From assembly GCA_963701965.1 (NCBI GenBank), contig OY969695.1:4928001-4992000 (forward strand): a stretch of 64,000 bases of DNA, in the 5' to 3' direction. Positions 9,868 through 33,387 of this stretch are shown piece by piece. This DNA is from an uncultured Gemmatimonadales bacterium. Its GTDB lineage: Bacteria; Gemmatimonadota; Gemmatimonadetes; Gemmatimonadales; Gemmatimonadaceae. The position numbers and the translations under genes are program-made. Numbering within the stretch: the first letter of the stretch is position 1; the number at the start of each line of letters is the position of its first letter. Below the pieces are notes generated by a model. The model ran no database searches. It was given only the letters and a program-made list of their open reading frames with translations, and had not been told where the DNA came from.

Positions 9868-10913
9868 CCGCTATGACCTCGCGTGCTCTCTCGTCCGATC
9901 GCATGGTCGCCGTGCTCGCACTCGCCGTCGCAGCGTGTGCGACCGATACCCCATACGCGCCGCCACCAGTGACGGATCCCACAAAGCTCTACTGGTCACT
10001 CACGCTCAACCATCGCGCCGTGACGCTCTCCACGGTTGCGCCGTACGACACGATTCGTCTCGTCGCCACTCCGCGGACCATCAAGGGCCTGCCCATTGCC
10101 GGGCTTCCGGCGCCGACGTTCACATCGCTGGATCTGCAGAACGTACAGGTCAGCGCGACGGGGCTGGTGCACGTCATTGGCACCGGCACGCAGTTCACGG
10201 TGGTGGCGTCACTATCGATCGGCAACGACACGCATGCGGACACGGCGATCTTCAACGTCACCGATACGACGACCCCACCGGTCCTTAGCCGGTTCACGAT
10301 TCACCCGCCGCCGGGTGATAGCGCCAAGACAGCCTCCAACTTCCCAACGCTGATTCCCAGTGCGGGGATCGATGCCGCGGGGGACACCATCCAGAACCTC
10401 GCCACCTACTACTCGACGGCAGATTCGAGCGTGGCCACGATCGATCGCACCGGGGTGTTGAGTCCGGTACGACCCGGTCATGTGACGGTCTATGCGACGG
10501 CGACCGCGTATGGGATCACGAAGGCGGATACCCTGCCGTACACGATCGGCTATTCTCTCTTCGCGGTAATCCAGATCGCGGCGGAACCGAATGCTGCCGG
10601 GAAGATCGTCGGCATCTTTACGCCCAGCACGGTCTCCTTGGGTCCGGGTGCCACGGTGGTGTTCCAGAACCAGTCCGCGCCATCAACCGACGTCACGTTC
10701 GATGATCCGACGCACGTCATGCAGGATGACGCGGCCTGCGCCCAGCATGTGTGGTGGTGTGGGTCCGGCAACATTGCGGCATTCGCCAACGATCCCAGCG
10801 ACACGTCGGATACGAAGCAGCTTCGCATTCGCTCGATACCGGCTCCGGGCACCTACAAGTTCCACAGCACGATCTCCGGCGCCTCTGGGTCGGTCGTCGT
10901 CATGAAGCAGTAG
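9864..10913 (+). CDS. Lipoprotein with Ig-like repeats and C-terminal cupredoxin-like domain, copy 1
   Basis: Lipobox VAAC; YSTADSSVATIDRTGVL Big_2-like motif; FTPSTVSLGPGATVVFQN...PGTYKFHS plastocyanin-like pattern. Confidence 0.7.
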   Translation: MTAMTSRALSSDRMVAVLALAVAACATDTPYAPPPVTDPTKLYWSLTLNHRAVTLSTVAPYDTIRLVATPRTIKGLPIAGLPAPTFTSLDLQNVQVSATGLVHVIGTGTQFTVVASLSIGNDTHADTAIFNVTDTTTPPVLSRFTIHPPPGDSAKTASNFPTLIPSAGIDAAGDTIQNLATYYSTADSSVATIDRTGVLSPVRPGHVTVYATATAYGITKADTLPYTIGYSLFAVIQIAAEPNAAGKIVGIFTPSTVSLGPGATVVFQNQSAPSTDVTFDDPTHVMQDDAACAQHVWWCGSGNIAAFANDPSDTSDTKQLRIRSIPAPGTYKFHSTISGASGSVVVMKQ

Positions 10914-12522: not shown

Positions 12523-13965
12523 GCCGGGGACGTGATCGACTGATTCGACTCGATGACGCGGAGCGCATCCTGTCTCGCGAGGAATGCGCGCGCATCGCGC
12601 GCCGGACCTTCGATTTCGCGCGGGGCGGGGGCGAGTCGCAGATCGAGATCTTCTCGTGGTGGAACGGCGAGCTGCGATGGGCGCGCAATCGCGTCGCGCT
12701 GGCCAGTGATCGCCGGGACATCCGGATCGCGGTGGGCCGGTTCGTCGGTGTGGGGCAAGGCCAGGCGACGACGAACCAACTCGACGATGAGTCGCTCGAG
12801 TCGGCGGTGCGGGCGGCGGAGCGGAATGCCCGGCACTGGCCAAATATTCTCCGCCGGCCAGTCTTGCTCCCGCCTATTCCGTTCGGCCGCGCCCCCGAAG
12901 GCGGCGATCTGGAGCGACGCGACGTATGCTGTGACGCCGGAGGTCCGGGGCGAGGTGGCGCGCACGCTGGTGGCGAAGGCGGAAGCCCAAGGGATGCAGT
13001 CCGCGGGGTACATCGAAATGCGCGCGGGCGCACGTACGCTGATGCACTCGGAGCGGATAGACACGCCGGCGCCGTGGGACATCCCCTACGCGGCGTGGAC
13101 GCAGGCGCAATGTTCGATGACGGTGCGCAGTCCGGACGGTACGGGGTCGGGTTGGGCGGGTCTTTCCGGCCATGACTGGGCGCGAATCGATAGCGACGGG
13201 CTGGCGCAGCGCGCGCTCGACAAGTGTCTCACCTCGCAACATCCGGTGACGCTCGAGCCCGGGCGCTACACGGTGATCCTCGAGCCGCAGGCCGTCGCCG
13301 ACTTGTGGGAGCTGGTCGTGGCCTCGATGCCGCGGCTGATCGCGGAAATGGGCCAGGGACCCTGGGCGTTGGCACCGGACGAGGCGCTCAACCTGTGGCG
13401 CACGAAACTGGGGCTCAAGGTCATGGACGAACGCATCACCGTGGACCATGACCCCACGGACCCGGAACTGGGCATCGTGCCAGAAGCGTGGATGGAGCCC
13501 GTACGATGGATCGATCGGGGCGTGCTGACGACGCTCGCGTACGATCGGGACTATGCACTGGCGAAGCTGGGGACCAATGCGCCACGGCGGGGGATGGTGG
13601 GGTACCGCATGAGCGGCGGCGAGACATCGATGGAGGAGATGATCCGCACCACCACGCGCGGATTGCTCGTCACCCGGCTCTCGAATGTGCGCCTGTTGGA
13701 TCAGACCAGTCTTCTGGCCACGGGGTTGACCCGGGATGGGCTGTGGCTGATCGAGCATGGGCAGATCTCGAAGGCCGTCAAGAATCTCCGTTTCACCGAA
13801 TCTCCGTTGTTCGCGTTCTCGAGCATCGAGCAGCTCGGGGTTCCGGTGCCGGTGTTCCGCCCGGTCAAGGACCCGTATGAGCAATTCGCGCCGTTGACCC
13901 CGGCGATCGTGCCGGCGCTCAAGGTGCGTGATTTCTCCTTCACGTCGACCATCAATGCGATTTAG
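12519..13965 (+). CDS. tldE: TldE/PmbA-family protein, copy 1 (apparent +1 frameshift near 12882)
   Basis: LEPGRYTVILEPQAV and TGLTRDGLWLIEHGQISKAVKNLRF; split over ORFs 12447..13175 and 12553..13965, colinear with intact copy 2. Confidence 0.8.
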
Positions 13966-15364
13966 TCGCGGCAGTCGCGACGGTGCTCGCGGCGATGATG
14001 TGTTGTCGTCATCCGGCCACCGCTCAGGCGCAAACGCGATTTCAATGGCCGGACACCAGTGTGGATCTCGCCCGGTACTCGAGCGTTGGGGAGTGCTCGG
14101 GCGCTGTCCGGCGCGTGCAGGCGGATGTGGACCGCCGTGAGGCGTTGACCATGGAGCGGGACACGCTACCGCCGGATCCGGGGCGCAGCCTTGCGCCGGC
14201 GCCGGCCGAGGTGACGGAGACGGCGATACGGTGTGCGGCACGCGTTACGCGACGCACCGTCGATCTGGTCGAATTCCGCTGGGCTATGCCCCTCCTGCTC
14301 GCGGCGGGCCGGGATAGCGATGTCGCGGTCTTGGTCGACCGGAAACTGGCGACGGTCCCAGCTACTGACGCGCGCGCGCGTGCCATCGTCGTCGACAGCG
14401 CGGTTGACATTACCTGGACGCGCGGCCGGTGCGTCTGGCGGCGGCCGAAACGTTTCTGGTGCGGCGGGCCCGTGGCGGCGCCGATCGCATCGAACGGCTC
14501 AAGACCTACGACAAGCTGCGCGACGTGAGTCATCAGGATGGCGACACGGCGCGCGCGCGCCGAGTGGCGCGCTGGGAGATCGGCGTGGCCGACTCCCTCA
14601 CCCCGGCGGAGCGCCAGTCGCAGGCCTACGCGGAGCTGGCCGCCGGCAATGGTGGCGACATGCTCATCTACGCGGCGGAAGAGGAGCTCACCGGTCTGGT
14701 GCCGCTCCTCGATAGCCTTCGGCATAGCACGGCGGCCTTCGCCACTTTGGAGTACGATCTTCTGCGTCGGGCCTCCGGCGGCCAGCCGGACAAGCTCTTG
14801 CCCATCGGACGACCGTCTCCGCCGCTCGCCGCTGATTGGTGGTTTCCGGCTGTCGCTGGAACCGTGCATTGGCCGACGCCGGGTCACGTGACGTTCGTCA
14901 GCTTTCTCACTTTCCCGCAGTGTGTGGGGCTATCCGAAGATAGCTACAGCGGCTCGTGCAATAGCGAGCTGGTGAGGCTGAGGCGGATCGCGCGCCGGTT
15001 TCCCGATGTCGACATCACGATCGTCGCGTCGACCCAGGGCGGATTCATGTACCTACCGCCCATGTCTCCCGCGGCCGAAGCCTCGTGGATCGCGCAATGG
15101 GTCGACGTGTTTCACGTGCCAAACTTGGTCGTAGCCGTTGACTCGACGCCGTTCTGGCGCCTCCCGGATCCCGACGGGCGCCGGATCAACAAGGACGTGC
15201 CGAGTATCGCCGTCTACCGCTACGGTCTCTGGCGACCCGAGCAGCAAGGCAGCCGCATGCTCGTTGACGAGAATGGCCTCATTGTCGACGTCCTGCATGT
15301 GAACGACGAGGATGCGCTCATGCAGTTCATTGACGTGCTCGTCCACCGCCCCCGTCCGAGTTGA
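13955..15364 (+). CDS. Secreted protein with C-terminal thioredoxin/TlpA-like domain, copy 1 (apparent frameshifts near 13976-14012 and 14410)
   Basis: Pieces 13983..14528 and 14429..15364 align end to end with intact copy 29105..30508. Confidence 0.7.
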
Positions 15365-15366
15365 TC

Positions 15367-18168
15367 ATGTGGCTGCGCGCATTGCTCTGCTACGGTGCCC
15401 TCGTGCCGCTCGGATTCACGCCGGCACCCGCCCTGCGGGATCCGGCCTTGACGGTGGGGACGCTGCCGAACGGGCTCCGGTACTACCTCCGTCCCAATCA
15501 CCAGCCGGCGCACCGGGTGGAACTGCGCCTCGTGGTCAATGCGGGCAGCGAATTGGAGGATCGCGACCAGCAAGGGTTCGCCCATTTCCTGGAGCACATG
15601 GCGTTCGAAGGCACCACGCATTTCCCCGGACATGCGTTGCTCGATTTCATCGAAACGAGCGGCATGCGGTTCGGCGCCGATCTGAACGCGATGACGACGC
15701 CGGACGAGACGATCTACACGCTGACATTACCCTCCGACGACCCGCACATCGTCGAACGGGGCCTCCAAGTACTGGAGGATTGGGCAGACGGGGGGATTCT
15801 CATCGACTCGGCCGCGGTCGTGGGGGAGCGCGGGATCATCATGGGGGAGTGGCGGACGCGCCTGCCGGATTCGGCGAGTCGCACGGTGCAGGCGCACTAC
15901 GACACGCTGTACTTGGGACATTCGCGCTACCGGTCGCGGAAGCCGATCGGGGATACGGCGCTCATCCAGCACGCGACGCCGGGACCGATCCGGCGCTTTT
16001 ATCGGGACTGGTATCGGCCCGAGCGCATGACGGTGGTGGTGGTCGGGGATGTCGATGCGTCGACGATGGCGCTTGAGATCCGCCAGCGGTTCGGGGGCAT
16101 TAAAGCGGCCGCGCCGGCGCGCCCGCGGCCGGCGGTAGGGCTGCCGTCGCGGTCCTCGCCGGAGATCGACGTGTATCGGGGGAAGGTGGAGCCCGGAGTG
16201 GAGCTGCAGTGGCCGCTGGCCCCGACGCCCGCTGACCCGCTGGCGGCGGTCAAGCAGCAGGTCATGCACGATCTACTTGCCTCCACCGTCTCGGCGCGCC
16301 TCTTGGACATCCGCACCCATCCCTCGCGTCCGTTCATTAGTGCTCAGTTGGATCAAGGGCGTCTGGTCCGCCCGATTGCCATCGAGGCGCTCTCGGTCAT
16401 CACGTGGCCGGATAGTCTGGAGCATGGATTGGACGCCGTGTACACGGTGCTCGAGGGCATCGCCCAACACGGCATCCCGGCGAGTGTGCTTGCCCACGAA
16501 AAGGCCGTGCTGTTGGCCCGCCTGGAGCACGCGGCATCGGGCGAGATGGGCCGGTCGTCGGCAGCCTATGCGGATGCGTACGTCGATCATGCCCTGACCG
16601 GCGACGGCTCGCTCTTGAGCGCGGCGCAGGAACTGGCCTATGCGCGGCCGATCCTAACTGCGCTGACCCCCGACGACCTGGCGCACGTCGTCCGGCAATG
16701 GCTGGATCCGGCGCGATCGCGCATCGTCGTCCGGCTGCCCCTCACCGCGCACGTCGCCACCCCCACCCGTACGCGGGTGCTCGCCCTGATCGATTCGCTG
16801 GCCCGCACGCCCCTGCCACCGGACAGCGACCGCGCGACGTCCGGCGGATCGCTGCTCGCGACCGCGCCGACCCCCGGGCACGTCGTGAGTGAGCAAAACG
16901 ATCACGCGGCCGGCATCACCGAATGGACGCTCTCCAATGGCGCCCGGGTGATCCTCAAACCGACGCAAAACGATCCGGACGACGTGCAGATGCGGGCCTG
17001 GAGTCCCGGCGGGTTCTCCCTGATGCCCGACTCGCTGTTTTTCACCCCGGGCCGGATGGTGGGGCGCGTGATGACCGACGTCGGCGGACTCGGGGCGACC
17101 ACGCACGATGCGCTGGAGCGCCAGCTCTCGACGACCGGACTGCGGGAGATGCGAGTCAACATCGGCTACGCCGATCAGACCATTCGGGTCGCTGGGTCGC
17201 CCAAAGAACTGGAGCTGCTCTTTCAAATGCTGCATCTCCAGCTCACCGCACCGCTCATCGACACCGCGGCGCTGTCGGGGTGGAAGAGCCTGGCCAAGTG
17301 GCAGTTGACGGGGACGTCGATCGACGACCAGCTCAGTCGGCAGCTCGCCCTGAACGACCCCCGGTTGCAGCCGGTGTCGACGAGCCTCGCCGAGCTGGCG
17401 ACGGTCGACAATCTCATGGCCGCCTATCGGAACCGCTTCGGGAACCCCGCGGGGTTCACGTTCACCATCGTCGGCGCCGTGAGTCCGGAGGAAGCGCGCC
17501 CGTTGGTGGAACGGTACCTGGCCAGCCTGCCGGGGACGGGGACCACCGAGCAGCCGAAAGCGACTCGTGAGCACTTCGTGTCGCTCAACCGGGTGAAGGC
17601 GATCCTCCACGAGACGGAGCCGGAGAAGGCGGTGACGTTTCTCGTGTTCGACGGCCTGTTCCCGCCGGCGCCGCAAGACTACCTGCGGGAGCGCCAGCGC
17701 CTCTCGGCGCTGACGTATGTGCTGGACGAGCGGTTGCGCACGCGACTCCGGCAGGAATTGAGTGGCACGTACTCGCCGTTCACCACCAGTGAGACGTACG
17801 CGTTGCCGGAGGAACGCTACCGGGTGCTGGTGGCATTCGACGCGGCGCCGGCGCGGATGTATGAGTTGAACTGGGCCCTGATGCAGGTGGTGGACTCGCT
17901 GCGGACGCACGGGGTGAGCGAGGCCGAGGCGACGCGGGCGGCGACGGTGCAGCGGCGGCAGTTGGAGACGCGGCTCCAGGACAACAATTACTGGATGGGG
18001 ACGATCGGAACGTATGTCCGTCTGGGGATCCCGCTGGACGCGGTCCCGGCGCCGTACGGCGATCATGCGGTGACGGCGGAGGAGATCGGGGAGGCAGCCC
18101 AGCGCTATCTCCCCGCCAATGCGTATTACCGCCTCACCCTCGTGCCCAAGGACTCTACCGCATCGTAG
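15367..18168 (+). CDS. M16-family (PqqL/pitrilysin-like) zinc protease, copy 1
   Basis: Signal peptide; GTLPNGLRYY, AHFLEHMAF (HxxEH), FYRDWYRP, EWTLSNGARV; four-domain length. Confidence 0.92.
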   Translation: MWLRALLCYGALVPLGFTPAPALRDPALTVGTLPNGLRYYLRPNHQPAHRVELRLVVNAGSELEDRDQQGFAHFLEHMAFEGTTHFPGHALLDFIETSGMRFGADLNAMTTPDETIYTLTLPSDDPHIVERGLQVLEDWADGGILIDSAAVVGERGIIMGEWRTRLPDSASRTVQAHYDTLYLGHSRYRSRKPIGDTALIQHATPGPIRRFYRDWYRPERMTVVVVGDVDASTMALEIRQRFGGIKAAAPARPRPAVGLPSRSSPEIDVYRGKVEPGVELQWPLAPTPADPLAAVKQQVMHDLLASTVSARLLDIRTHPSRPFISAQLDQGRLVRPIAIEALSVITWPDSLEHGLDAVYTVLEGIAQHGIPASVLAHEKAVLLARLEHAASGEMGRSSAAYADAYVDHALTGDGSLLSAAQELAYARPILTALTPDDLAHVVRQWLDPARSRIVVRLPLTAHVATPTRTRVLALIDSLARTPLPPDSDRATSGGSLLATAPTPGHVVSEQNDHAAGITEWTLSNGARVILKPTQNDPDDVQMRAWSPGGFSLMPDSLFFTPGRMVGRVMTDVGGLGATTHDALERQLSTTGLREMRVNIGYADQTIRVAGSPKELELLFQMLHLQLTAPLIDTAALSGWKSLAKWQLTGTSIDDQLSRQLALNDPRLQPVSTSLAELATVDNLMAAYRNRFGNPAGFTFTIVGAVSPEEARPLVERYLASLPGTGTTEQPKATREHFVSLNRVKAILHETEPEKAVTFLVFDGLFPPAPQDYLRERQRLSALTYVLDERLRTRLRQELSGTYSPFTTSETYALPEERYRVLVAFDAAPARMYELNWALMQVVDSLRTHGVSEAEATRAATVQRRQLETRLQDNNYWMGTIGTYVRLGIPLDAVPAPYGDHAVTAEEIGEAAQRYLPANAYYRLTLVPKDSTAS

Positions 18169-18197: not shown

Positions 18198-18276
18198 TCC
18201 TAGGGGTATCAGATCATCACGGCAGGCAACGGCCTCGAGTATTGACAGCATTGGTACCGTTGCTTACAGATCTGTC

Positions 18277-18909
18277 GTGAAGGTTCCGATACCGAAGACG
18301 TCCCACCACGACACGGTCACTGGGCCGGCCCTGCGGCTGGAGTTGCCATCAGGCGAATCCGGCGGAGACGCGGAGCGACTGTCGCGCATCCGCGCAGGAG
18401 ACGTGGCGGCATTCGAGGCCGTCGTTCGTGCGCATGCGCCAGGGTTGGTGGCCTTCGCCTATAGGTACGTGCGGTCTCGCGAGCTCGCGGCCGATCTCGC
18501 CCAGGACGTATTTGCCCAGATATGGGAGCGACGGGAGTCGCTGGACGTCCGCGGGTCGATCCGCGCGTATCTCTACGGAGCCGTACGCAACCGCGCGCTC
18601 AACGCGATCCGGCGCGATTCGCTACTGTCCCGCTGGCGGGACACCGAGTCGACACGCGACCCGGCCGATGGGCGCGCGGCGCCGTCGGCGGACCGCCCGC
18701 TGGAGGAAGCCGAGCTGTTGACGGCCCTGCACGCGGCCCTGGCGTCGCTGCCGCCGCGCACGCGTGAGGTGGCGCGGCTCCGCTGGCAGGAAGAGATGAG
18801 CTACGCCGAGATCGCGACCGTCATGGAGATCACCGTGTCGACGGTGAGCAATCAACTGCTCCGCGCCGCGAAACGCATGCGGGCCCTCCTCGCCGGAGTC
18901 TGGCCCTAG
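18277..18909 (+). CDS. ECF sigma-70 factor (FecI-like), copy 2
   Basis: AADLAQDVFAQIW and MSYAEIATVMEITVSTVSNQLLRA; start uncertain. Confidence 0.9.
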   Translation: MKVPIPKTSHHDTVTGPALRLELPSGESGGDAERLSRIRAGDVAAFEAVVRAHAPGLVAFAYRYVRSRELAADLAQDVFAQIWERRESLDVRGSIRAYLYGAVRNRALNAIRRDSLLSRWRDTESTRDPADGRAAPSADRPLEEAELLTALHAALASLPPRTREVARLRWQEEMSYAEIATVMEITVSTVSNQLLRAAKRMRALLAGVWP

Positions 18910-18921
18910 CACATCCGCGGA

Positions 18922-18949
18922 TAGTGAAGTTCTCGGGGTCGCGTGTCTC
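18922..18949 (+). promoter_or_regulatory. Putative ECF promoter upstream of second fecR-like gene
   Basis: TAGTGA-N17-GTCTC at the same distance from the start codon as in copy 1. Confidence 0.4.
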
Positions 18950-18955
18950 ATTGAC

Positions 18956-20059
18956 GTGGACAACGAAACCCCGGACCTGAGCGACCTACCGCTCGACGTC
19001 TTCGAGCGATTCCTCGCCGGTGAGTGTACGCCGGATGAAATAGCCCGCGTGCGGACGTGGGCCGCTGGTGTCACCGGCCATGCCAATGCCGCCCATCGGA
19101 TGCGCGAGGGAATTCGGTCACTCGACGCCGAAGCGCCGGCCGCCCTCAATGTCGACGCATTCCTCTCCGGGCTGCGCACCCGACTCAATTTGGCCCCGGC
19201 CCATCGGCGCGCGGCGCCTCGGTCGCGCACCTGGACGGGAGCCCCTGGCATCGCCACGCCACAACGGACCGGCTGGCGCATCGTACGAATGGCGGCCAGT
19301 GTCGCCGCCATCGGCCTTGGTGCGCTGACGGTGTGGCGCGCGGGCTGGGTCGGACCGACGCAACCGGTCCGCAATGTCGACAGTGCGCGCGGGAGTCGCA
19401 CCACCCTCACCCTGCGGGATGGGACGCGCATCGTGCTGGGGCCGGCGACGCATCTCGAGGTGCCGGAGGACTTCGGCCGCGCGACGCGAGAGGTCACGCT
19501 TTCCGGAGAGGCGCTGTTCACGGTCGTTCACGATCCTCGGCGGCCCTTCGCCGTCAAGACCCCGCGCATGACGACGCGCGATGTCGGGACGACGTTCGCC
19601 GTACGCGCGTACGCCGACGATGCCTACGAGCGCGTCGCAGTGGTCGAGGGAGCGGTCCAGGTGGCTGGCGCATCGCTCGCGGCGCACGACGTCGCGTTGG
19701 TCGACACATCCCGGCGTGTCACCATCGAGCGGGGGACTGATGTGGCGCCGTACCTGGCGTGGACACAGGCCACGCTGGTGTTTCGAGGGACCCCGTTCCG
19801 CGAGGCTGTTCGCGAGGTGGCGCGCACGCTCGATCTCGACGTGACCATCGCCGATTCGACCATCGGTCGGCAGCTCATCACCGGGTCGTTTGGCAATCAG
19901 TCCGTGGACGAGATTCTCGAGGCCATCACGCGGGTGGCGGGCGCGCACTTCGAACGGAAAGGCCGCGTCGTCGTGATTCGGCGCGGGGTGATGCCGGTCA
20001 GCCGACATGAGTCGCCGCGGAATGTGGAGCGGGTTACCATGAATGGACGCGGGTCATGA
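18956..20059 (+). CDS. FecR-family anti-sigma/transmembrane sensor, copy 2
   Basis: SARGSRTTLTLRDGTRIVLG, GEALFTVVHDPRRPFAV, DVGTTFAV. Confidence 0.9.
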   Translation: MDNETPDLSDLPLDVFERFLAGECTPDEIARVRTWAAGVTGHANAAHRMREGIRSLDAEAPAALNVDAFLSGLRTRLNLAPAHRRAAPRSRTWTGAPGIATPQRTGWRIVRMAASVAAIGLGALTVWRAGWVGPTQPVRNVDSARGSRTTLTLRDGTRIVLGPATHLEVPEDFGRATREVTLSGEALFTVVHDPRRPFAVKTPRMTTRDVGTTFAVRAYADDAYERVAVVEGAVQVAGASLAAHDVALVDTSRRVTIERGTDVAPYLAWTQATLVFRGTPFREAVREVARTLDLDVTIADSTIGRQLITGSFGNQSVDEILEAITRVAGAHFERKGRVVVIRRGVMPVSRHESPRNVERVTMNGRGS

Positions 20060-23000
20060 GGTGGATTGGCACAGGCGGCGCGCTCATCGCGGCGTCGATC
20101 GCCTCGCAGTCGGCGCCCGCCCGAGCACAAGTCGTCCCGTCGTCGCTCGCGACGAGTGGGCAGCAGTGGCACCAGAACACCGACGTGCTCGCGAGGCGCA
20201 TCGCGCTCAAACTGGACCACGTAGCGCTGGCGGCGGCCCTGGATACGATCGCCTCCCGGGCGCACGCCCGCGTGGTCTATAGCTGGAGTGTGGTGCCGGT
20301 TTCGCAGACGGTGTCCTTGGTGGCGGACGCCATCACCGTGGAGGACGCGTTGACGCTCGTGCTGCGTCGGACCGGCGTGAAAGCCGTCGCCGGCACGAGC
20401 GAGACGATCATGCTGGTGAAGGACGAGGATCCCCGCTCCAGCAGCCCGGACACCGGAGCGCACGCGGAGGTGCTGGTGCGCGTGATGAACGATACGACGA
20501 CGCAACCGCTTGCGGGCGCCGTCGTGGGGCTCAAGGGGACCGACAAGCAAGAGATCACCGACGATCGGGGGTATGCCGCTCTCCTGCGCGTCCCGGCGGG
20601 ACTCCGGGTGATTACGGTGCGCTACCTCGGCTACACGCCCGATGAACGACGCATCGTCGCGCCTGACACCGGCTTCGTGACCGTCACCTTCGCGCTCAAG
20701 ATGGGAGCGGCGCACCTCCAGGAGATCGTCACGACCGCGACTGGCCCGCGCCGTCGCTACGAGCTGTCGAATGACATCACGATCCTGAATGCCGACTCGA
20801 TCGTCCGCAACGAACCGATCTCGAACGTCACCCAGATTCTCGATGGTCGTGTCCCCGGTCTGACGGTCCAGCATACATCGGGCGCGCCGGGCGATCCGAG
20901 CCGCTTGCGCCTCCGCGGGGTCAGTAGTGCGCTCGAGTCGAATGACCCAATCGTCATCGTCGATAACGTGCGGGTCTATGCCGCGCAGTCCGACTCGTTG
21001 AGCGGGAACCTCGCGGCTCTCCACAGTGCGGTGCTGCCGGGCATTCTCGGCATCCCCGGCGCCGCTAATACGAGTGTCGGGTCGACAGCCGGGGCCCCGT
21101 CGCCGCTCGATCAGATCGACCCAGGGAGCATCGAGACCATCGAGGTGCTGAAGGGACCTTCCGCCGCCACGCTGTATGGTCCCGATGCCGCAAATGGCGT
21201 CATCGTCATCACAACGAAGAAGGGTCACGCGGGTCCCGCGCGTTGGACGGCTGATGCGTCGCACGGGACATCGTCGATCCCCGGACAATATCCCGTGGGG
21301 TACTATCGGTTCGGCGTCGGCTCGGCAACCGATGACGTCAGGCTTTGTCCGTTGAGCGACCCCAGTTGCACGGCCGATAGTCTTGTGCGTTTCCAAGCGC
21401 TCAACCATTCCCAGTACTCCATTCTCCGGAGTGGCGTGACGAACACTGGGAACGTCGGTGTCTCGGGCGGCAGCGAGGCGCTGACGTACGCCGTCAACGG
21501 GAGTATTGACGACGAACAAGGGGTGGTGAACATGCCACCGTCCGAGATGGCTCTCTACCGGTCCATGCACGATGGCGATCAGCCACTCGGGTGGATGATC
21601 CATCCCGAGCAGCTGTCGCGATGGAGCGCCACGTCTCGCCTGGCTGCGAAGCTGAGCGATCGTGCCGATGTGTCGCTCTCGGTGATGTTGACGCACGAAA
21701 ACCAACAGCGATCCGATCTCGAGAGCGAACTGGCCCCGCTCATGACCACCTACATCGATCGCAAGAACAACCTGTACTGGCAGGCCAATGGGTCAGGATT
21801 GAGTCCGGTGAGCGACCCCCTGGCAGATGCGTCGCAGCGCGTCACCGACGATGCCACGAATTTCACGAACTCCGCCAGTTTCAGTTGGCGTCCGTTGAAC
21901 TGGCTCACGACTAGTGCCAGTGTGGGGCTCAACGTCATCAGTCGGCAGGATGACGCCCTGGTTCCACAGGGTGTGCAGGCAATCAATACGAACAACGAGC
22001 AAACGAACGCCGACAGCGGCGGCACGCTCACCACCGCGCACGGATCAACAACGCAAACCACGGTCAACATGCAGGTCGAGGGTAATGTGCCGCTGTTCGG
22101 CGGCCTCCGCATGCAGTTGGCCACGGGAGCGAATTACAGCGCTGCGGCGGTATCAACTATTACGACATCGGCGATCGGTCTCCTCCCGGGCAGCAACTCG
22201 CTCGTGGGCGCGCAGGCCATCAGGTTGGCCACGCAAGCCTCGAACAACCAAACCAGTTACGGCTGGTACCTGGCGCCGGACTTCATGTACCGGCACTTCG
22301 TCATCAATACCGGTCTGCGCCTCGATCAGAGTACATTGTTCGGCAAGAACGCCCATCAGCCGCTCTTCCCGAAGCTTGGCGTGTCGTGGCTCCTCTCCGA
22401 AGAGCGGTTCTTTCCGTTCAAGAAACTGTTCGACGCCTTCCGCGTGCGCGGGGCGTACGGGCAGGCGGGCGTCTGGCCGTCGCCACAGCAACAACTGCGC
22501 CTCTACCAGTCATTCAATCCGTTCCTCGACGGTGGCTTCCAGTCAGCGACCCAGCTCACCACCATTGGCAACAGTCAACTACGGCCGGAGCGGTCGGAGG
22601 AGTTCGAGGGCGGTGTCGACGCCGACCTGCTTCACGACTGGGTGTCGGTCGAATTCAGTGGCTATCGAAAGATGCGCTATGACGCGATCCTGAACGTGCC
22701 GGTCGCGCCGTCTGTGTTCGCCAACCAGTCGATCGCCGAAAACATTGGGGAGATCCGCAACACCGGCGTCGAAGCGACTCTAATCACGCAGCTCCTTCGC
22801 ACCGATCCGGTCTCGTGGAACGTGGCGGTCAATCTGAGCCGTAACTACAACGTGGTCGTGCGACTCGGTCCGGGCGTCCTGCCATTCGGCACGGACGACG
22901 CGCGCGTTCAGGCCGGATATCCGCTCTTCAGTCGGTTTGCGCGGCCCATCCTGGCGTACACGGATGCGAATCACGACGGCATCATCGAGCCGGACGAGGT

Positions 23001-23508
23001 GCTCGTCGGTGACTCGCTGGTCTATATGGGCGCGAGCGATCCGAGCTACACCGTCGGGATGCACAGCCAGATGTCCTTTTTTCGAGGCGCGGTGTCCGTG
23101 TCGGCCGACTTCGAGTACCAGGCCGGCCTGACGCAGCTCAACGGACCGCTGGGATCGGCTGGACAGTTGGTGTTCTCGCCGGGGAGCAGTGACCCGCACG
23201 CGCCGTTCTCGGAGCAGGCGGCCGCCGCTGTGTTGAACGAGACGGACTATGGAGCCATTCAGCGCGTGAGCACGTTCCGATTCCAGAGCCTCTCGGTCGC
23301 CTACCACCTCCCGAGGACAGTCGCGCGCTGGCTCATGCGAGCGGCGGATGTGTCGGTGGCGCTCCAGGGCACGAATCTCGGGTTGTTCACGAACTACAAG
23401 GGAAAGGACCCAGACGTGAACACGTACTCGACGGGCAATCAACTCATCAATGGCGGTGTCGTGCCGCAACCGCGCGTGTGGATCGTCAGAGTCAATGCGG
23501 CGTACTGA
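20056..23508 (+). CDS. SusC/RagA-family TonB-dependent transporter, copy 2
   Basis: Signal peptide, STN-like domain, same plug signature as copy 1. Confidence 0.9.
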   Translation: MRWIGTGGALIAASIASQSAPARAQVVPSSLATSGQQWHQNTDVLARRIALKLDHVALAAALDTIASRAHARVVYSWSVVPVSQTVSLVADAITVEDALTLVLRRTGVKAVAGTSETIMLVKDEDPRSSSPDTGAHAEVLVRVMNDTTTQPLAGAVVGLKGTDKQEITDDRGYAALLRVPAGLRVITVRYLGYTPDERRIVAPDTGFVTVTFALKMGAAHLQEIVTTATGPRRRYELSNDITILNADSIVRNEPISNVTQILDGRVPGLTVQHTSGAPGDPSRLRLRGVSSALESNDPIVIVDNVRVYAAQSDSLSGNLAALHSAVLPGILGIPGAANTSVGSTAGAPSPLDQIDPGSIETIEVLKGPSAATLYGPDAANGVIVITTKKGHAGPARWTADASHGTSSIPGQYPVGYYRFGVGSATDDVRLCPLSDPSCTADSLVRFQALNHSQYSILRSGVTNTGNVGVSGGSEALTYAVNGSIDDEQGVVNMPPSEMALYRSMHDGDQPLGWMIHPEQLSRWSATSRLAAKLSDRADVSLSVMLTHENQQRSDLESELAPLMTTYIDRKNNLYWQANGSGLSPVSDPLADASQRVTDDATNFTNSASFSWRPLNWLTTSASVGLNVISRQDDALVPQGVQAINTNNEQTNADSGGTLTTAHGSTTQTTVNMQVEGNVPLFGGLRMQLATGANYSAAAVSTITTSAIGLLPGSNSLVGAQAIRLATQASNNQTSYGWYLAPDFMYRHFVINTGLRLDQSTLFGKNAHQPLFPKLGVSWLLSEERFFPFKKLFDAFRVRGAYGQAGVWPSPQQQLRLYQSFNPFLDGGFQSATQLTTIGNSQLRPERSEEFEGGVDADLLHDWVSVEFSGYRKMRYDAILNVPVAPSVFANQSIAENIGEIRNTGVEATLITQLLRTDPVSWNVAVNLSRNYNVVVRLGPGVLPFGTDDARVQAGYPLFSRFARPILAYTDANHDGIIEPDEVLVGDSLVYMGASDPSYTVGMHSQMSFFRGAVSVSADFEYQAGLTQLNGPLGSAGQLVFSPGSSDPHAPFSEQAAAAVLNETDYGAIQRVSTFRFQSLSVAYHLPRTVARWLMRAADVSVALQGTNLGLFTNYKGKDPDVNTYSTGNQLINGGVVPQPRVWIVRVNAAY

Positions 23509-24997
23509 GCGCCAGGTGTCGACGATACGCGTCGCCTCGCCTGCCGTGCAGATCATCGTGCGGCTCGTCTACGGATCGCTGTTCGCCGGCCTGGCGGCGT
23601 GTCAGGTCGCCACCGATCCGCTCCCGGCCGGTGTCCCCGATCCCAGCACGACGCGCACTCCGTCGGGTGCGCAAGACGTCTACGAAGGTGCTCTGGCCAC
23701 GCTGCGCAACGCCTTTGCGGGCGCGGGAGATGCGTTCGTGCCGACCACCGGGTTGCTCACCGATGAACTCGAAACAGGTGACATTGGCGAGCTGTCGTTG
23801 ATCACACCGGGAACGGTGGTCGACAGCCGAATCTTGCCAGAGTACACGGGCACGGGCACGGACAACGTCACCCCCAGCACGATCGTCGAAATCTATGGTC
23901 TCTTGCAGAATACGCGCGCCGAGGCTCGACAAGCCCGTGGGTACCTCCATGCCTATGCGCCGCAAGCGCCCAAGGCGCTGACTGGGCATATGTATGCCGT
24001 CGAAGGCTATGCCGACGTGTTCCTCGCCGACCTATTCTGCTCGGGCGTCCCACTCAGCACGCTCGATTTCGGCAAGGATTTCACGTACCAGCCCGGATCG
24101 TCGACGCAAGATGTGTATGAGCGCGCGGTCACGTACTTCGACTCCGCGCTGACGCTGGTCGCCGACAGCAACCGTATTCTCAATCTGGCGCGGATGGGGA
24201 AGGGACGGGCCCTCCTGGCGCTTGGTCAGTACGCTCAGGCCGCCGCCGCGGTCGCCCAAGTGCCCGACGGCTACCAGTACGCGCTGCAGTTCAATGGGAC
24301 GGCTACATCAACTAGTGGCGGCGCCCCCATGTCCAACCAGAACTTCGTGACCCCGACCTTCAATGCTGGCTATGCCCCTGGAATCGGAGGGCTCACGATG
24401 GTGGATCGAGAAGGCGGAAACGGTCTTCCCTTTCTCTCGAGGGGCGATCCGCGCTCCGTAGGGACGGCGAACGGGTTCAACGACTTCGGGGTCCCAATGT
24501 TCCGACCGCTGATGTACGACATCACCGGAGACAGCCCGGTGATCATGGCCAGCGGGATCGAAGCGCGACTGATCGCCGCCGAGGCGGCGCTCCAAGCGGG
24601 TGGCAACGGTTGGCTGACGACGTTGAACACCCTGCGGACCGACGGCACGCTTGCGACGCAGCCGGATGGCACCGATCCGACCAAGACCGACACGGTATGG
24701 AATGCCGGCAGCGGCGGCGTCGCGGGACTGGCGCCGCTCCGTGATCCGGGCACCGTGCCCGCCCGCGTGACGATGCTGTTCACGGAACGCGCCTACTGGT
24801 TGTTTCTCACGGGCCATCGTCAGGGCGATCTGCGCCGTCTCATTCGGCAGTACGGTCGCGCCGAGACGCTGGTGTATCCGGTCGGAGCGTACACGGGGGC
24901 CTTCGACGCCTATGGCACTGACGTGACCGCACCCATTCCCGGCGCCGAGCGGCTCAGCAATCCGCTGTTCAAGGGCTGCCGCAGCCGAGGAGCCTGA
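23495..24997 (+). CDS. SusD/RagB-like lipoprotein, copy 2
   Basis: Lipobox LAAC; ERAYWLFLTGHRQGDLRRL; start uncertain. Confidence 0.85.
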   Translation: MRRTERQVSTIRVASPAVQIIVRLVYGSLFAGLAACQVATDPLPAGVPDPSTTRTPSGAQDVYEGALATLRNAFAGAGDAFVPTTGLLTDELETGDIGELSLITPGTVVDSRILPEYTGTGTDNVTPSTIVEIYGLLQNTRAEARQARGYLHAYAPQAPKALTGHMYAVEGYADVFLADLFCSGVPLSTLDFGKDFTYQPGSSTQDVYERAVTYFDSALTLVADSNRILNLARMGKGRALLALGQYAQAAAAVAQVPDGYQYALQFNGTATSTSGGAPMSNQNFVTPTFNAGYAPGIGGLTMVDREGGNGLPFLSRGDPRSVGTANGFNDFGVPMFRPLMYDITGDSPVIMASGIEARLIAAEAALQAGGNGWLTTLNTLRTDGTLATQPDGTDPTKTDTVWNAGSGGVAGLAPLRDPGTVPARVTMLFTERAYWLFLTGHRQGDLRRLIRQYGRAETLVYPVGAYTGAFDAYGTDVTAPIPGAERLSNPLFKGCRSRGA

Positions 24998-25002
24998 CTG
25001 CC

Positions 25003-26044
25003 ATGGCCTGGCGTCCGCCGTCACCCAATCACCTGGTCGCGATGCTTGCGCTCACCGTCGCGGCGTGCGCGACCGATACGCCGTATGCGCCGCCACCGGT
25101 GACGGATCCCACGAAACTCTACTGGTCACTGACGCTCAATCATCGGGCCGTCTTGCTTTCAACGGTGGCGCCGTACGACACCATTCGACTGGTCGCCACG
25201 CCGCGGACCATCAAGGGCGTTCCCATCGCGGGGCTTCCGGCGCCCACGTTCACGTCGCTTGACCTGCAGAACGTGCAAGTCAGCACCACGGGGCTGGTAC
25301 ACGCCATTGGCACGGGCACGCAATTCACCGTGGTCGTGTCAATGTCGGTCGGCAATGACACGCATGCGGACACGGCGATCATCAATGTCACCGACACGAC
25401 GCCGCCACCCGTGCTCAGCCGGTTCACGATTCATCCGGGATCCGGAGACAGCGCGAAGACGGCCGCCGATATCGAAGTGTCCATTCCCGGGGTGGGGATC
25501 GATCCCGTCGGAGACACCATCCAGAATCTCTCCATCTACTACGCGACCGCAGATTCCAACGTCGCGAACATCAGTCGCGCCGGGGTGCTGACACCGAACC
25601 GACCAGGTCATGTGACGGTGTATGCGACGACGACGGCGTACGGGATCACGAAGGTGGATACGCTGCCGTACACGATCGGGTATTCCATCTTCGCCGGGAT
25701 CCAAATCGCAGCGGAGCCCAACGCCGCCGGCAAAACCGTCGGCGTGTTTACGCCGAGCAGTGTTCTCGTCGGTCCGGGGGCCACCATCATTTTCGAGAAT
25801 CTGTCCGGTCCACTCACGGACGTCACGTTCAATGATCCGACGCACGTCATGCAGAGATGACGCCGCCTGCGCCGAGCATGTGTGGTGGTGTGGCTCCGGC
25901 AACATTCCGGCGTTCGCCAACGATCCCACCGACACGACCGGTTCGAAGCAGGATCGCATTCGCGTATTCCCCGTCCCGGGCACGTACAAGTTCCACAGCA
26001 CGATCTCCGGATCCTCCGGCTCGGTCGTCGTGATGAAACAATGA
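25003..26044 (+). CDS. Ig/cupredoxin-like lipoprotein, copy 2 (apparent +1 frameshift at ~25855)
   Basis: CAGAGATGA vs CAGGATGA in copy 1; C-terminus continues in ORF 25622..26044. Confidence 0.7.
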
Positions 26045-27673
26045 GTGCGCATTCGATGGACTCGTTCCTCACACGGCGTGGTTTCCTCAGAACCAGCGCC
26101 ATGGCGGCGGCGGTGGCCGCGGTGCCCAGCCGTATCGTGCGAGGAGTCCCCGAGGCGAGAGCTATTCCACCGATCGAGGATCCACGCACCGCCGAGTTGG
26201 CCGCGCGCGGGCTCGAGAGCGCGCGCGGCACCGGCGCGGGCTACGCCGACGTCCGTCTGACTCACACCCGGACGCGACGATTCCAAGCGATCGTCGTCGA
26301 GGACGAGGAGGACATGGAGGTCGGCGTACGCGCGCTCGTGGACGGGTACTGGGGATTCGCCAGCGGACCCGTGTGGAGCCCGGACGAGATGGCGCGCCTC
26401 GGTCGCGAGGCCGTGCATCAAGCCAAAGTCAATACCCTCGGCAAGCCGCGCAATGTGACCCTAGCGTCGGCGGCGGTCGTGCAGAGCGCGCACTGGGCCA
26501 CACCGGTCCAGATCGATCCGTTTGGGTTGTCGCCATTCGAGATTCAGGACTATCTCGCCGCCATGCAGATCTGGACCGAGGAGTACGGCATTCAGGGGGT
26601 GGTCAGTCAGATGTACGCCGTCGTCCAGGATGTAGCCTTCTCGTCGACGATCGGGAGCTATTGCACACAGCGCCGATACTGGACGGAGGGGACGTTGTCT
26701 GGCGCGGTGCGCGTCGGCAACGAGCGGGGCGGGGTCTCGCTGGCGTGCCTTTCGCGGGCGGGTATGGGGTGGGAGCTGTTCACCGCCGATCGCATCCCGC
26801 GCGTGCGCGATCACGCCTTGCGCGACGAGGTCCGCCTCCGCGCGGAGGAGGCGCGCGCGCTCCTTCGCCTGCCGCTCAAGCCCATCAATGTCGGGCGCTA
26901 CGATGCCGCCGTCGACGCCACGAGCATGGCGCGAGTAGTCAATGCGACGCTCGGTCGCGCCACCGAGTTGGACCGTGCACTCGGGTACGAAGCCAATGCG
27001 GGCGGCACCAGCTATCTGTCGGATCCATTGGGGATGATCGGACACTACCAGGCCGGCGCTCCCCTGTTGACCGTGACGGGCAATCGATCGGAATCCGGTG
27101 GGGCCGCTACGGTGCGGTGGGACGACGAGGGGGTGGCCCCGGACGATTTCTTGCTCGTCAAGAACGGCGTCCTCACCGACTTCCAGACCACGCGCGAAAG
27201 CGCGACATGGATGGGCGGGTCAGCCGTCGGCGACCGGTGCCCACGCGCGGTCACACGGGTGTGCCAATGCGCCCTCGGCGGTGTACGCCGCCATGACCCA
27301 CACGCCAAACCTCGTCATGGCGCCGGGGGCGTCCGGGGACTTCGAGACAATGGTCAGTAGCGTGACCAATGGTCTGGCCATCTCGGGGGCCAATCTCGAG
27401 ATGGACTTTCAAGTGGCAACCGGGTTCGGGACGGGGACGGTCGTTGCCGTCAAGCAGGGGAAGCGGGTGGCGCGCTTATCGGGTGCGGGGTTCCTGTTCC
27501 GATCGACCGAGTTCTGGAAATCACTCGTGGCGATCGGCGGCGAGACGTCGCTGCGCCGGGTGGGCCTGGCAGCGCAGAAGGGTGAGCCGCCGCAGCTGTG
27601 TTATCACAGCGTCACGGCGCCGCCCGCGGTCGTCAAGGGGCTCACGCTCATCGACCCGTTGAGGAAAGCATGA
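26041..27673 (+). CDS. tldD: TldD-family protein with Tat signal, copy 2 (apparent +1 frameshift at ~27213)
   Basis: TRRGFL twin-arginine; colinear with copy 1; C-terminus in ORF 27098..27673. Confidence 0.8.
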
Positions 27674-29115
27674 GCCGGGGACGTGATCGATTGATTCGAC
27701 TCAATGACGCGGATCGGATCCTGTCTCGCGAGGAATGCGCGCGCATCGCCCGCCGGACCTTCGATTTCGCGCGCGGCGGCGGAGAGTGCCGCATCGGGAT
27801 CTTCTCGTGGTGGAACGGTGAGCTGCGGTGGGCGCGCAATCGCGTGGCGCTGGCCAGTGATCGCCGGGACATCCGGATCGAGGTCGGCCGGTTCGTCGGC
27901 GTGGGGCAAGGCCAGGCGACGACGAACCAGCTCGACAATGAGTCGCTCGAGTCCGCGGTGCGGGCCGCGGAGCGGAACGCCCGGCACTTTCCACTCATTC
28001 TGCGTCGCCCAATGCTGCTCCCGCCCATTCCCGTGGCCGCGCCCCCGCAGACAGCGATCTGGAGCGACGCGACGTATGCCGTGACGCCGGAAGTGCGGGG
28101 CGAGGTGGCGCGGACGCTGGTGGCGAACGCGGAAGCGAAGGGGATGCAGTCGGCGGGGTACATCGAAATGCGCGCGGGCGCGCAGACGCTCCTGAGCTCG
28201 GAGCGGATGGACGCGCCGGCGCCGTGGGACGTCCCCTACGCGGCGTGGACACAGGCGCAATGCTCAATGACGGTGCGGAGCCCGGACGGTACGGGGTCGG
28301 GCTGGGCGGGTCTTTCGGGCCATGACTGGGCGCGGATCGATGGCGCCGGGCTGGCGCAGCGTGCGCTCGACAAGTGTCTCACCTCGCAGCATCCGGTGAC
28401 GCTCGAACCCGGGCGGTACACGGTGATCCTGGAGCCGCAGGCCGTCGCCGATTTGTGGGAGCTGGTCGTGGACTCTATGCCGCGGGTTATCGCGGAGATG
28501 GGCCAGGGGCCCTGGGCGTTGGCGCCGGACGAGGCGCTCAACCTGTGGCGCACGAAACTGGGGCTCAAGGTCATGGACGAACGCATCACGGTGGACCACG
28601 ACCCGGCGGACCCGGAACTGGGTATCGTGCCCTCGGCGTGGATGGAGCCCGTGCGCTGGATCGATCGCGGCGTGCTGACGACGCTCGCGTACGATCGGGA
28701 CTATGCGCTGGCGAACTTGAAAACCAACGCGCCACGGCGGGGGATGGTGGGGTACCGCATGAGTGGCGGCGAGACCTCGATGGAGGAGATGATTCGGACC
28801 ACCACGCGCGGATTGCTCGTCACCCGGCTCTCGAATGTGCGACTGTTGGATCAGACCAGTCTTCTGGCCACGGGGTTGACCCGGGATGGGCTGTGGTTGA
28901 TCGAGCATGGCCAGATCTCGAAGGCCGTCAAGAATCTGCGCTTCACCGAATCTCCGTTGTTCGCGTTCTCGAGCATCGAGCAGCTTGGGGTTCCGGTGCC
29001 GGTGTTCCGCCCGGTCAAGGACCCGTATGAGCAATTCGCGCCGTTGACCCCGGCGATCGTGCCGGCGCTCAAGGTGCGCGACTTCTCCTTCACGTCGACG
29101 ATCGATGCGATATAA
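27670..29115 (+). CDS. tldE: TldE/PmbA-family protein, copy 2 (intact)
   Basis: ATGA overlap with the tldD stop; TldE-like motifs; no signal peptide. Confidence 0.85.
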   Translation: MSRGRDRLIRLNDADRILSREECARIARRTFDFARGGGECRIGIFSWWNGELRWARNRVALASDRRDIRIEVGRFVGVGQGQATTNQLDNESLESAVRAAERNARHFPLILRRPMLLPPIPVAAPPQTAIWSDATYAVTPEVRGEVARTLVANAEAKGMQSAGYIEMRAGAQTLLSSERMDAPAPWDVPYAAWTQAQCSMTVRSPDGTGSGWAGLSGHDWARIDGAGLAQRALDKCLTSQHPVTLEPGRYTVILEPQAVADLWELVVDSMPRVIAEMGQGPWALAPDEALNLWRTKLGLKVMDERITVDHDPADPELGIVPSAWMEPVRWIDRGVLTTLAYDRDYALANLKTNAPRRGMVGYRMSGGETSMEEMIRTTTRGLLVTRLSNVRLLDQTSLLATGLTRDGLWLIEHGQISKAVKNLRFTESPLFAFSSIEQLGVPVPVFRPVKDPYEQFAPLTPAIVPALKVRDFSFTSTIDAI

Positions 29116-33314: not shown

Positions 33315-33387
33315 GGGTATCGCGCCCCTCGCGAGTCATCATCACGGGGACGATCAGCGGTCCCCGTTATCCCACTCTCCGAGGCCC

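What the first reader, a model, noticed from the sequence alone, without database searches (positions are those of the whole stretch)
18277..20420. Duplicated locus with a swapped signalling cassette (sigma + FecR + SusC signalling domain)
Seen: the two sigmas, two FecRs and the N-terminal STN-like domains of SusC are only distantly similar, while similarity rises from TSET(V/I)MLVKD (~5280 vs ~20395) and is high from the plug onward. Known: the transporter's N-terminal domain contacts its cognate FecR, which controls its cognate sigma. Inference: the three interacting parts were replaced or diverged as a unit, insulating two signalling channels that drive near-identical effector operons.
Basis: partly seen in the sequence, partly recalled or inferred. 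Interest (0 to 1): 0.7.

Follow-up and report, generated by a model that had tools for sequence, protein, structure and literature searches.

The report
Swappable signalling cassettes on uptake operons
Two neighbouring copies of a nutrient-uptake operon share about 85% of their DNA but carry control modules (a predicted promoter, a sigma factor, its membrane partner and the transporter's signalling tip) of separate ancestry, a mix-and-match pattern that recurs in related Gemmatimonadaceae genomes and likely lets each copy switch itself on independently.

Summary
Two tandem nine-gene loci (sigma, FecR, SusC, SusD, Ig-like lipoprotein, TldD-like, PmbA-like, unknown, M16 peptidase) align at 85% DNA identity from 5280/20395 to the M16 stops, while sigma, FecR and STN are only 34-39% alike.

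Trees show replacement, not fast divergence. An A+B clade is rejected for sigma, FecR and STN, and each cassette has closer relatives in other genomes; the transporter bodies are sisters. The breakpoint falls at about 20377-20395.

Patchy silent-site identity points to later gene conversion of the bodies.

The pattern is family-wide. STN follows sigma/FecR, not the barrel (16 of 17 pairs versus 1 of 39), and close cassettes almost never share a genome. Two relatives carry 67 and 120 FecR genes.

Insulation is inferred, not tested. Direction of transfer and substrate are open. The TldD-like proteins lack their metal ligands. Verdict: a new variant of known cell-surface signalling.

The parts
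3196..3221 (+). A-type ECF promoter-like motif TAGGGG-N14-CCGGTA before sigma A (predicted autoregulation)
   Evidence: one of only 2 exact matches in the genome
3223..3822 (+). ECF sigma A (start may be the ATG at 3259)
   Evidence: Pfam Sigma70_r2/r4_2; TIGR02985 above cut-off
3831..3856 (+). second A-type promoter-like motif, in the sigma-FecR gap
   Evidence: same place in L024, L043, L053, L055, L060
3862..4938 (+). FecR-type anti-sigma A
   Evidence: Pfam FecR + FecR_C
4935..8408 (+). SusC A: STN ~5073-5306, CarboxypepD_reg ~5349-5579, then plug and barrel; GTG start overlaps the FecR stop
   Evidence: Pfam, TIGR04056 above cut-off, coordinates
8350..9867 (+). SusD-like lipoprotein A
   Evidence: 84% to SusD B, whose model matches SusD/RagB
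9864..10913 (+). Ig-like lipoprotein A
   Evidence: weak Pfam Big_2
10915..12522 (+). TldD-like protein A lacking HExxGH and the Cys ligand; twin-arginine-like N-terminus
12447..13965 (+). PmbA/TldE-like A, one-base frameshift near 12880
13960..15364 (+). conserved protein of unknown function, copy A, frameshifted (start approximate)
   Evidence: no Pfam or NCBIfam hit
15361..18168 (+). M16 peptidase A, HxxEH intact
18201..18222 (+). remnant of the sequence that follows M16 in copy B (TAGGGGTATC..ATCATCACGG); marks the 3' end of the duplicated tract
   Evidence: exactly 2 matches in the genome, here and at 33312
18242..18270 (+). TTGACA-N17-TACAGA before sigma B; possible housekeeping priming promoter
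   Evidence: TTGACA conserved in L046; not called by the sigma-70 consensus scan
18277..18909 (+). ECF sigma B
   Evidence: 64% to L046, 34% to sigma A
18922..18947 (+). B-type promoter-like motif TAGTGA-N14-CGTGTC in the sigma-FecR gap
   Evidence: TAGCAA-N14-TGTGTC at the same place in L046; weak alone (4 genome matches, 0.76 expected)
18956..20059 (+). FecR-type anti-sigma B
   Evidence: 54-59% to L046/L032, 35% to FecR A
20056..20376 (+). SusC B signal peptide and B-type STN core (20188-20376)
   Evidence: STN core 64% to L046, 39% to A; B+L046 bootstrap 99
20377..20395 (+). inferred recombination breakpoint, just before the TSETIMLVK stretch at the end of the STN
   Evidence: blastn start
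20395..23508 (+). SusC B from the STN end on: CarboxypepD_reg (20464-20694, 62% to A), plug and barrel (90% to A)
23450..24997 (+). SusD-like lipoprotein B
   Evidence: AlphaFold model matches SusD/RagB, Foldseek E 7e-10
25003..26045 (+). Ig-like lipoprotein B, frameshift near 25854
26045..27673 (+). TldD-like B without metal ligands, frameshift near 27212 (start approximate)
27598..29115 (+). PmbA/TldE-like B
29105..30508 (+). conserved protein of unknown function, copy B
30511..33314 (+). M16 peptidase B, HxxEH intact, frameshifts near 32204 and 32370
33312..33347 (+). TAGGGG-N14-CGAGTC promoter-like tail before the lipoprotein-MoxR genes

Best explanation
The two loci are recombinants in which sister transporter-peptidase bodies sit behind two signalling cassettes of separate ancestry (predicted ECF promoter + sigma + FecR + STN), joined at the end of the STN, and this likely gives each locus its own positive-feedback channel. 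SHOWN: separate ancestry, the breakpoint, cassette-specific motifs before FecR, and recurrence across the family. INFERRED from FecA/PupB/Bacteroides work: substrate passing through a SusC barrel signals through its STN to the cognate FecR, which releases its sigma; the sigma then transcribes FecR to M16 from the promoter in the sigma-FecR gap. FecR and SusC overlap by 4 bases, so no intergenic space is left for a separate SusC promoter. All four specificity contacts (STN-FecR, FecR-sigma, sigma with -35 and with -10) lie in one contiguous ~2.1 kb block, so a crossover at the STN end moves a complete working address onto a new body, whereas a crossover inside the block would mismatch partners. 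INFERRED history: an old duplication with cassette capture, then repeated gene conversion of plug-to-M16 that stops short of the cassette. Most likely cargo, weakly inferred: peptides or proteins, cut by the M16 peptidase, with the metal-less TldD/PmbA pair acting as a binder.
For: AU rejection of A+B for sigma, STN and FecR; body sisterhood at support 100; B+L046 rejected for the body, p=0.0016. Breakpoint scan. STN >=58% identical in 16 of 17 pairs sharing a cassette, against 1 of 39 pairs sharing only a barrel; the 39 form 9 clusters. Reciprocal cases: own-genome locus O3 (G000 C1:3.234 Mb) vs L026 has sigma 62, STN 78, barrel 23; L115 vs L048 has sigma 71, STN 72, barrel 30. The A motif occurs exactly twice in 5.1 Mb, both in cassette A (0.10 expected), and twice in each of five other A-type loci, including L060, which was not used to derive it. 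Close sigmas lie in the same genome in 1 of 17 pairs, close barrels in 26 of 44 (Fisher 1.3e-4, pairs not independent). Conversion: four-fold identity 63-87% differs among body segments (chi2 59.9, df 7), and the longest identical run is 112 bp against a maximum of 98 in 300 shuffles. Literature passages read: PupA/PupB chimeras separate transport from signalling (PMC9249621); 10 of 10 cognate and 0 of 20 non-cognate periplasmic pairs interacted in B. thetaiotaomicron (PMC2709373).
Against: No binding, promoter or expression test was done. Sigma, FecR and STN are physically adjacent, so linkage alone predicts that they travel together. Identity thresholds (58, 45, 68%) were chosen after viewing the tables. 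Trees used LG+G4 on 25-27 hand-picked loci, with fast searches for FecR and body. The B motif rests on two sequences. The direction of transfer is unresolved. The CarboxypepD_reg tree does not reject B+L046 (p=0.20). Frameshifts in both bodies could mean decay. PMC2709373 also reports 4 non-cognate sigma/anti-sigma contacts and one promoter-level cross-talk.
Confidence: 0.7

Rival explanations
1. Neutral by-product: the mosaic is real, but breakpoints gather after the STN only because homologous recombination and conversion stop where similarity ends; insulation was not selected and cross-talk may be substantial.
For: The cassette parts are contiguous. CarboxypepD_reg identity among same-barrel pairs ranges from 34 to 92%, so breakpoints wander downstream of the STN. 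Frameshifts hit both bodies.
Against: It does not explain why the first junctions keep STN with FecR instead of falling at the FecR/SusC gene boundary (1 of 39), nor why close cassettes avoid sharing a genome while close barrels do not. dN/dS stays low in the body genes.
Confidence: 0.2
2. The whole locus duplicated, and sigma, FecR and STN then diverged quickly in place under selection for orthogonality.
For: The copies are adjacent, and CarboxypepD_reg shows intermediate identity.
Against: A+B is rejected for all three parts. Each has 54-77% identical relatives in other genomes. Silent sites in the cassette are at background.
Confidence: 0.03
3. A programmed, recombinase-driven shufflon like B. 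thetaiotaomicron BT1032-53 switches bodies under cassettes within a population.
For: The breakpoint lies at a comparable place, behind the anti-sigma contact domain (bioRxiv 10.1101/521070, passages).
Against: No PF00589 integrase lies in the window; the nearest G000 match is at C1:5035409. Both copies are full-length with their own cassette, and breakpoints vary between pairs.
Confidence: 0.04
4. Assembly artefact: a chimera of two strains' loci.
For: The assembly has indel-like errors (PGK is also split) and 4.2% contamination.
Against: It is a single 5.1 Mb contig. 15% divergence dominated by silent changes is too much for a repeat error. The same pattern appears between neighbours in G211 (L116/117, L123-126, L145/146).
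Confidence: 0.03

Closest known systems
ECF sigma/anti-sigma/SusC trans-envelope signalling of Bacteroides thetaiotaomicron PULs (PMC2709373; passages and section 15 read)
   Same: TIGR02985-type sigma, FecR, SusC with an N-terminal signalling domain, SusD; many parallel systems per genome; a likely housekeeping promoter for the sigma plus a sigma-dependent promoter downstream.
   Different: Gemmatimonadaceae rather than Bacteroidota. No CAZyme hit among the locus genes; a fixed TldD-like/PmbA-like/unknown/M16 cargo instead. Cassette A has its motif before the sigma too. The passages read do not describe cassette exchange between loci.
BT1032-53 SusC shufflon (bioRxiv 10.1101/521070; also 10.1101/2025.06.24.661248; passages read)
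   Same: Natural recombination inside susC joins a signalling 5' end to different bodies.
   Different: There, one sigma/anti-sigma pair, 5'-truncated spare susC genes and a tyrosine recombinase give phase variation. Here every locus keeps its own full cassette, no recombinase is near, and the exchange is evolutionary.
FecIRA / PupIRB cell-surface signalling and the PupA/PupB chimeras (review PMC9249621 and PMC11637429; passages read)
   Same: STN-FecR C-terminal contact; the signalling domain is portable between barrels.
   Different: Those chimeras were engineered and concern iron carriers; here the chimeras are natural and recurrent, and include the sigma, anti-sigma and promoter motif.
TldD/TldE metalloprotease (PDB 5NJ5)
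   Same: Same fold (Foldseek E 1.7e-32, TM 0.71) and a TldD+PmbA gene pair.
   Different: HExxGH is absent in 61 of 61 aligned members and the Cys ligand is absent in the profile; twin-arginine-like N-terminus; inside an uptake operon.
Protease-associated import systems (FusA/FusC, YddB/PqqL) and RagAB peptide uptake (recalled; RagAB appears among the fold hits)
   Same: A TonB-dependent transporter encoded with an M16 peptidase.
   Different: SusC/SusD-type transporter with cell-surface signalling; substrate not tested.

Membership tests
FecIRA-type / Bacteroidota trans-envelope signalling | ECF sigma of the FecI-like/Bacteroidetes type | tested here: met
   TIGR02985 137 and 134 bits vs cut-off 126.4
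FecIRA-type / Bacteroidota trans-envelope signalling | adjacent FecR with FecR and FecR_C domains | tested here: met
FecIRA-type / Bacteroidota trans-envelope signalling | TonB-dependent transporter with an N-terminal STN domain | tested here: met
   A: Pfam STN above cut-off. B: no Pfam STN hit, but aligns with A at 39% and with L046 at 64%
FecIRA-type / Bacteroidota trans-envelope signalling | cognate-specific STN-FecR and FecR-sigma binding | not tested
   no complex prediction or experiment obtained
FecIRA-type / Bacteroidota trans-envelope signalling | sigma-dependent promoter driving anti-sigma and transporter | tested here: inconclusive
   conserved cassette-specific motifs at the expected place; activity untested
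SusC/SusD pair | SusC/RagA family transporter followed by a SusD-fold lipoprotein | tested here: met
   TIGR04056 383 and 377 bits vs 368; SusD fold by Foldseek, though no Pfam, NCBIfam or PDB sequence hit
Polysaccharide utilisation locus | carbohydrate-active enzymes in the locus | tested here: not met
   no CAZyme family among the locus proteins; one conserved gene remains unannotated
Tyrosine-recombinase SusC shufflon | recombinase within the locus | tested here: not met
Tyrosine-recombinase SusC shufflon | 5'-truncated spare susC genes under one sigma | tested here: not met
   both copies are full-length with their own sigma and FecR
TldD/TldE metalloprotease | TldD fold | tested here: met
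TldD/TldE metalloprotease | HExxGH metal motif and C-terminal Cys ligand | tested here: not met
   0 of 61 keep HExxGH; alignment to 5NJ5
M16 peptidase | HxxEH zinc motif | tested here: met
   A, B and 16 of 17 relatives
ECF group ECF240 | match to the group's profile | not testable with these tools
   no ECF-group library available; PMC7826278 passages never mention Gemmatimonad

The most novel reading that the evidence does not exclude
Gemmatimonadaceae expand one uptake-operon type to as many as 120 loci by combinatorial assembly: a pool of mutually orthogonal promoter-sigma-FecR-STN 'address' cassettes, older than the genera, is kept at about one copy per lineage per genome and is repeatedly re-coupled at the STN end to freshly duplicated or converted SusCD-pseudoTldD/PmbA-M16 bodies. 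That would be a natural library of dozens of orthogonal outer-membrane-to-promoter channels, whose sigma-promoter and STN-FecR codes can be read from sequence.
Probability: 0.45. Interest if true: 0.75.

Novelty: new variant of a known kind. Interest (0 to 1): 0.55.

Why it matters
How paralogous signalling systems gain specificity after duplication is a standing question. This locus shows a shortcut: capture an already orthogonal cassette instead of co-evolving three interfaces. The A/B pair is a ready test, with two addresses on bodies whose barrels are 90% identical and with predicted promoter sequences. Relatives with 67 and 120 FecR genes offer a large natural set for learning STN-FecR and sigma-promoter codes and for building orthogonal biosensors. 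The parts and their portability are already known from Pseudomonas and Bacteroides, which caps the surprise.

Tried and rejected
Sequencing runs: none was listed, so the junction and the frameshifts could not be checked against reads. The metagenome scan with SusC B found no relative. No complex prediction was obtained, and the ESM Atlas did not answer for the unknown gene. Sequence searches of PDB with single TldD and SusD proteins and with the SusD profile found nothing usable; folds were needed. The treekit mixture-model run ended in a script error and was replaced by IQ-TREE LG+G4. Support labels printed are shifted along the path to taxon A by re-rooting; the values quoted come from the unrooted trees. 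I considered that the shared body descends from the B lineage (L046 appears as sister of A+B), but AU tests do not separate this from an L024 sister for either half of SusC (p 0.11-0.68); for SusD, A+B+L031 is rejected at p=0.039 and A+B+L024 is not. The sigma-70 consensus scan did not call the TTGACA site. The 1497-aa ORF from 3915 is an upstream extension; SusC A most likely starts at 4935. Look-ups of earlier findings by place gave nothing. Literature: 8 searches listed no paper on these Gemmatimonadota loci or on natural exchange of whole sigma-FecR-STN cassettes. Only top listings were seen, the library omits most subscription papers, and no supplements were read.
Full report
What is there. 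The window is G000:C1:4928001-4992000 of a one-contig 5.1 Mb genome. The 78 best loci for its TldD-like family carry Gemmatimonadota record titles, mostly Gemmatimonadaceae, so I take it for a member of that family. It holds two tandem nine-gene loci, A (3223-18168) and B (18277-33314): ECF sigma, FecR, SusC, SusD, Ig-like lipoprotein, TldD-like, PmbA-like, unknown protein, M16 peptidase. SusC passes TIGR04056 and both sigmas pass TIGR02985. SusD was identified by fold only.

Observation. One alignment spans 5280-18159 vs 20395-33305 at 85.1%. Sigma and FecR are 37% and 35% identical, with four-fold sites at background (0.44 and 0.41 vs 0.38). STN core is 39%, CarboxypepD_reg 62% and plug+barrel 90%. 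The profile is a staircase, not a smooth slope.

Sample. I searched 41, 301, 401 and 401 genomes of relatives. Close SusC bodies were found in 6 of 300, FecR B relatives in 3 of 400 and FecR A relatives in 5 of 400; these searches scored only 2-5 candidates per genome. I fetched 132 stretches (L021-L152) and added own-genome loci. Of 132 SusC units, 117 had an upstream FecR and were analysed, 99 of them with a sigma. G211 has 120 FecR matches and G181 has 67; I sampled 42 stretches of G211 and 2 of G181. Most complete loci show the same gene order.

Replacement, not fast divergence. Sigma A's nearest relatives are L024, L043, L053 and L055 (76-61%); sigma B's is L046 (64%). The partner copy ranks 35th and 64th of 98. 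FecR and STN behave the same way, whereas for CarboxypepD_reg, body, SusD, TldD and M16 the partner ranks first. In IQ-TREE LG+G4 trees of 25-27 hand-picked loci, B+L046 has support 100, 99 and 95 (sigma, STN, FecR), A+L024 has 99, 96 and 95, and A+B has 100 for the body. AU tests reject A+B for sigma (p=3e-5), STN (0.007) and FecR (6e-66), and reject B+L046 for the body (0.0016) but not for CarboxypepD_reg (0.20). Informative sites place B's switch at 20376/20377.

The cassette includes a promoter motif. TAGGGG-N14-CCGGTA stands before sigma A (3196) and before FecR A (3831). These are its only two exact matches in the genome (0.10 expected), and it occurs twice in each of L024, L043, L053, L055 and L060. 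I derived it from the first four plus A, so only L060 is an independent check. B has TAGTGA-N14-CGTGTC at the same place and L046 has TAGCAA-N14-TGTGTC. With two examples and 4 genome matches (0.76 expected), the B motif is weaker. Neither motif occurs in the other locus. A TTGACA hexamer precedes sigma B and is conserved in L046. It fits the housekeeping-priming model of PMC2709373 (section 15 read), but the consensus scan did not call it. That these motifs are promoters is inference from position and conservation.

Family-wide pattern. With thresholds chosen after viewing the data, STN is >=58% identical in 16 of 17 pairs that share sigma and FecR, including 4 of 5 whose barrels are <=45% alike. 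It reaches that level in only 1 of 39 pairs that share a barrel but not a sigma; those 39 form 9 clusters. CarboxypepD_reg identity in them ranges from 34 to 92%, so that domain goes with either side. Partial correlations agree: STN-FecR_C 0.37, STN-sigma 0.33, STN-barrel 0.14. Neighbouring G211 loci repeat the window's pattern, with four-fold identity 19-36% in sigma and 57-73% in the body. Close sigmas share a genome in 1 of 17 pairs, close barrels in 26 of 44; these pairs are not independent, and G211 was only partly sampled.

History. A sequence found only twice in the genome follows both M16 stops (18201 and 33312), so the copied tract ran slightly past M16. In G268 an A-type cassette and body sit directly before the same lipoprotein-MoxR-DUF58 genes that follow locus B (L043/L044), while G005's B-type locus (L046, overlapping L031 by 141 identical bases) has other flanks. 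This leans towards an incoming B cassette. However, L021 occupies the same position with a third cassette, and trees do not settle the direction. Four-fold identity varies among body segments from 63% to 87% (chi2 59.9, df 7) and is lowest in CarboxypepD_reg, and a 112-bp identical run exceeds all 300 shuffles. I read this as an old duplication followed by repeated conversion of the body.

Mechanism. From FecA/PupB/FoxA and Bacteroides work (passages of PMC9249621, PMC11637429, PMC2709373), substrate transit signals through STN to the cognate FecR and frees the sigma. Here the predicted target is the promoter before FecR, which would drive the whole body, so each locus would be a self-amplifying loop. 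Giving a duplicated body a different cassette would let it be induced only through its own transporter. Differences between SusC A and B cluster in a plug insertion and several short stretches; that these face the substrate is a guess, as no SusC model was made. Cargo is probably peptide or protein: no CAZyme hit, an intact M16 motif, and a TldD-fold protein that lacks HExxGH in 61 of 61 aligned members, whereas two other TldD genes in this genome keep it.

Caveats. One-base indels break PmbA and the unknown gene in A, and Ig, TldD and M16 in B; none falls in sigma, FecR, SusC or SusD. PGK in the same window is also split, so assembly error is likely but unproven. Binding, promoter activity and substrate are untested.

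Known versus new. The portability of signalling domains (engineered PupA/PupB), cognate specificity, and a recombinase-driven SusC shufflon (bioRxiv 10.1101/521070, passages) are known. Recurrent natural exchange of complete promoter-sigma-FecR-STN cassettes in large Gemmatimonadaceae arrays was not seen in 8 searches (listings only). An earlier AI note (e1-2973035) describes the same operon type and the dead protease in another genome; the part shown does not mention cassette exchange. Verdict: real, a new variant of a known kind, interest 0.55.

Noticed in passing
G000 C1:3234301-3239164 (own genome, outside the window): A second cassette exchange: this sigma/FecR/STN is close to L026's (62/70-80/78%) while the transporter body is unrelated (barrel 23%); L088 shares both cassette and body with it.
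   Followed up: partly
G211 C1-C13; G181 C1-C29: 120 and 67 FecR matches, many spaced 12-20 kb apart; the sampled G211 stretches are tandem arrays of this same operon type.
   Followed up: partly
window 10915-12522 and 26045-27673: TldD-like proteins lack all metal ligands and have twin-arginine-like N-termini (weak Pfam TAT_signal, below cut-off), suggesting an exported, non-catalytic TldD/PmbA pair.
   Followed up: partly
window 60747-62783: PGK is frameshifted: its N-terminal part runs into the TIM frame and its C-terminal part lies in ORF 61681-62031; likely an assembly indel rather than a PGK-TIM fusion.
   Followed up: partly
window 42-127: A ~76-86 bp element with four 77-83% similar copies elsewhere in the genome; identity unknown.
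   Followed up: no
window 715-2217: S41-like peptidase with a 76% identical paralogue at G000 C1:2202666-2204121 that appears frameshifted.
   Followed up: no
window 33265-39482: Lipoprotein-MoxR-DUF58-DUF4159 genes follow the M16 gene here and in L043/L044 (L021 reaches only into MoxR); a TAGGGG promoter-like motif precedes the lipoprotein here and in L043, so these genes may belong to a sigma regulon.
   Followed up: partly
window 2230-2985 (-): Unknown protein with three paralogues at G000 C1:3.32-3.34 Mb, next to a sigma-SusC-SusD locus that lacks FecR.
   Followed up: no
sigma-FecR gaps of loci L021-L152: TAGGGG-like hexamers are strongly enriched in the 50 bp after sigma stops (47 hits vs about 5 per bin), followed by varied -10-like boxes: a family-wide promoter code.
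   Followed up: partly
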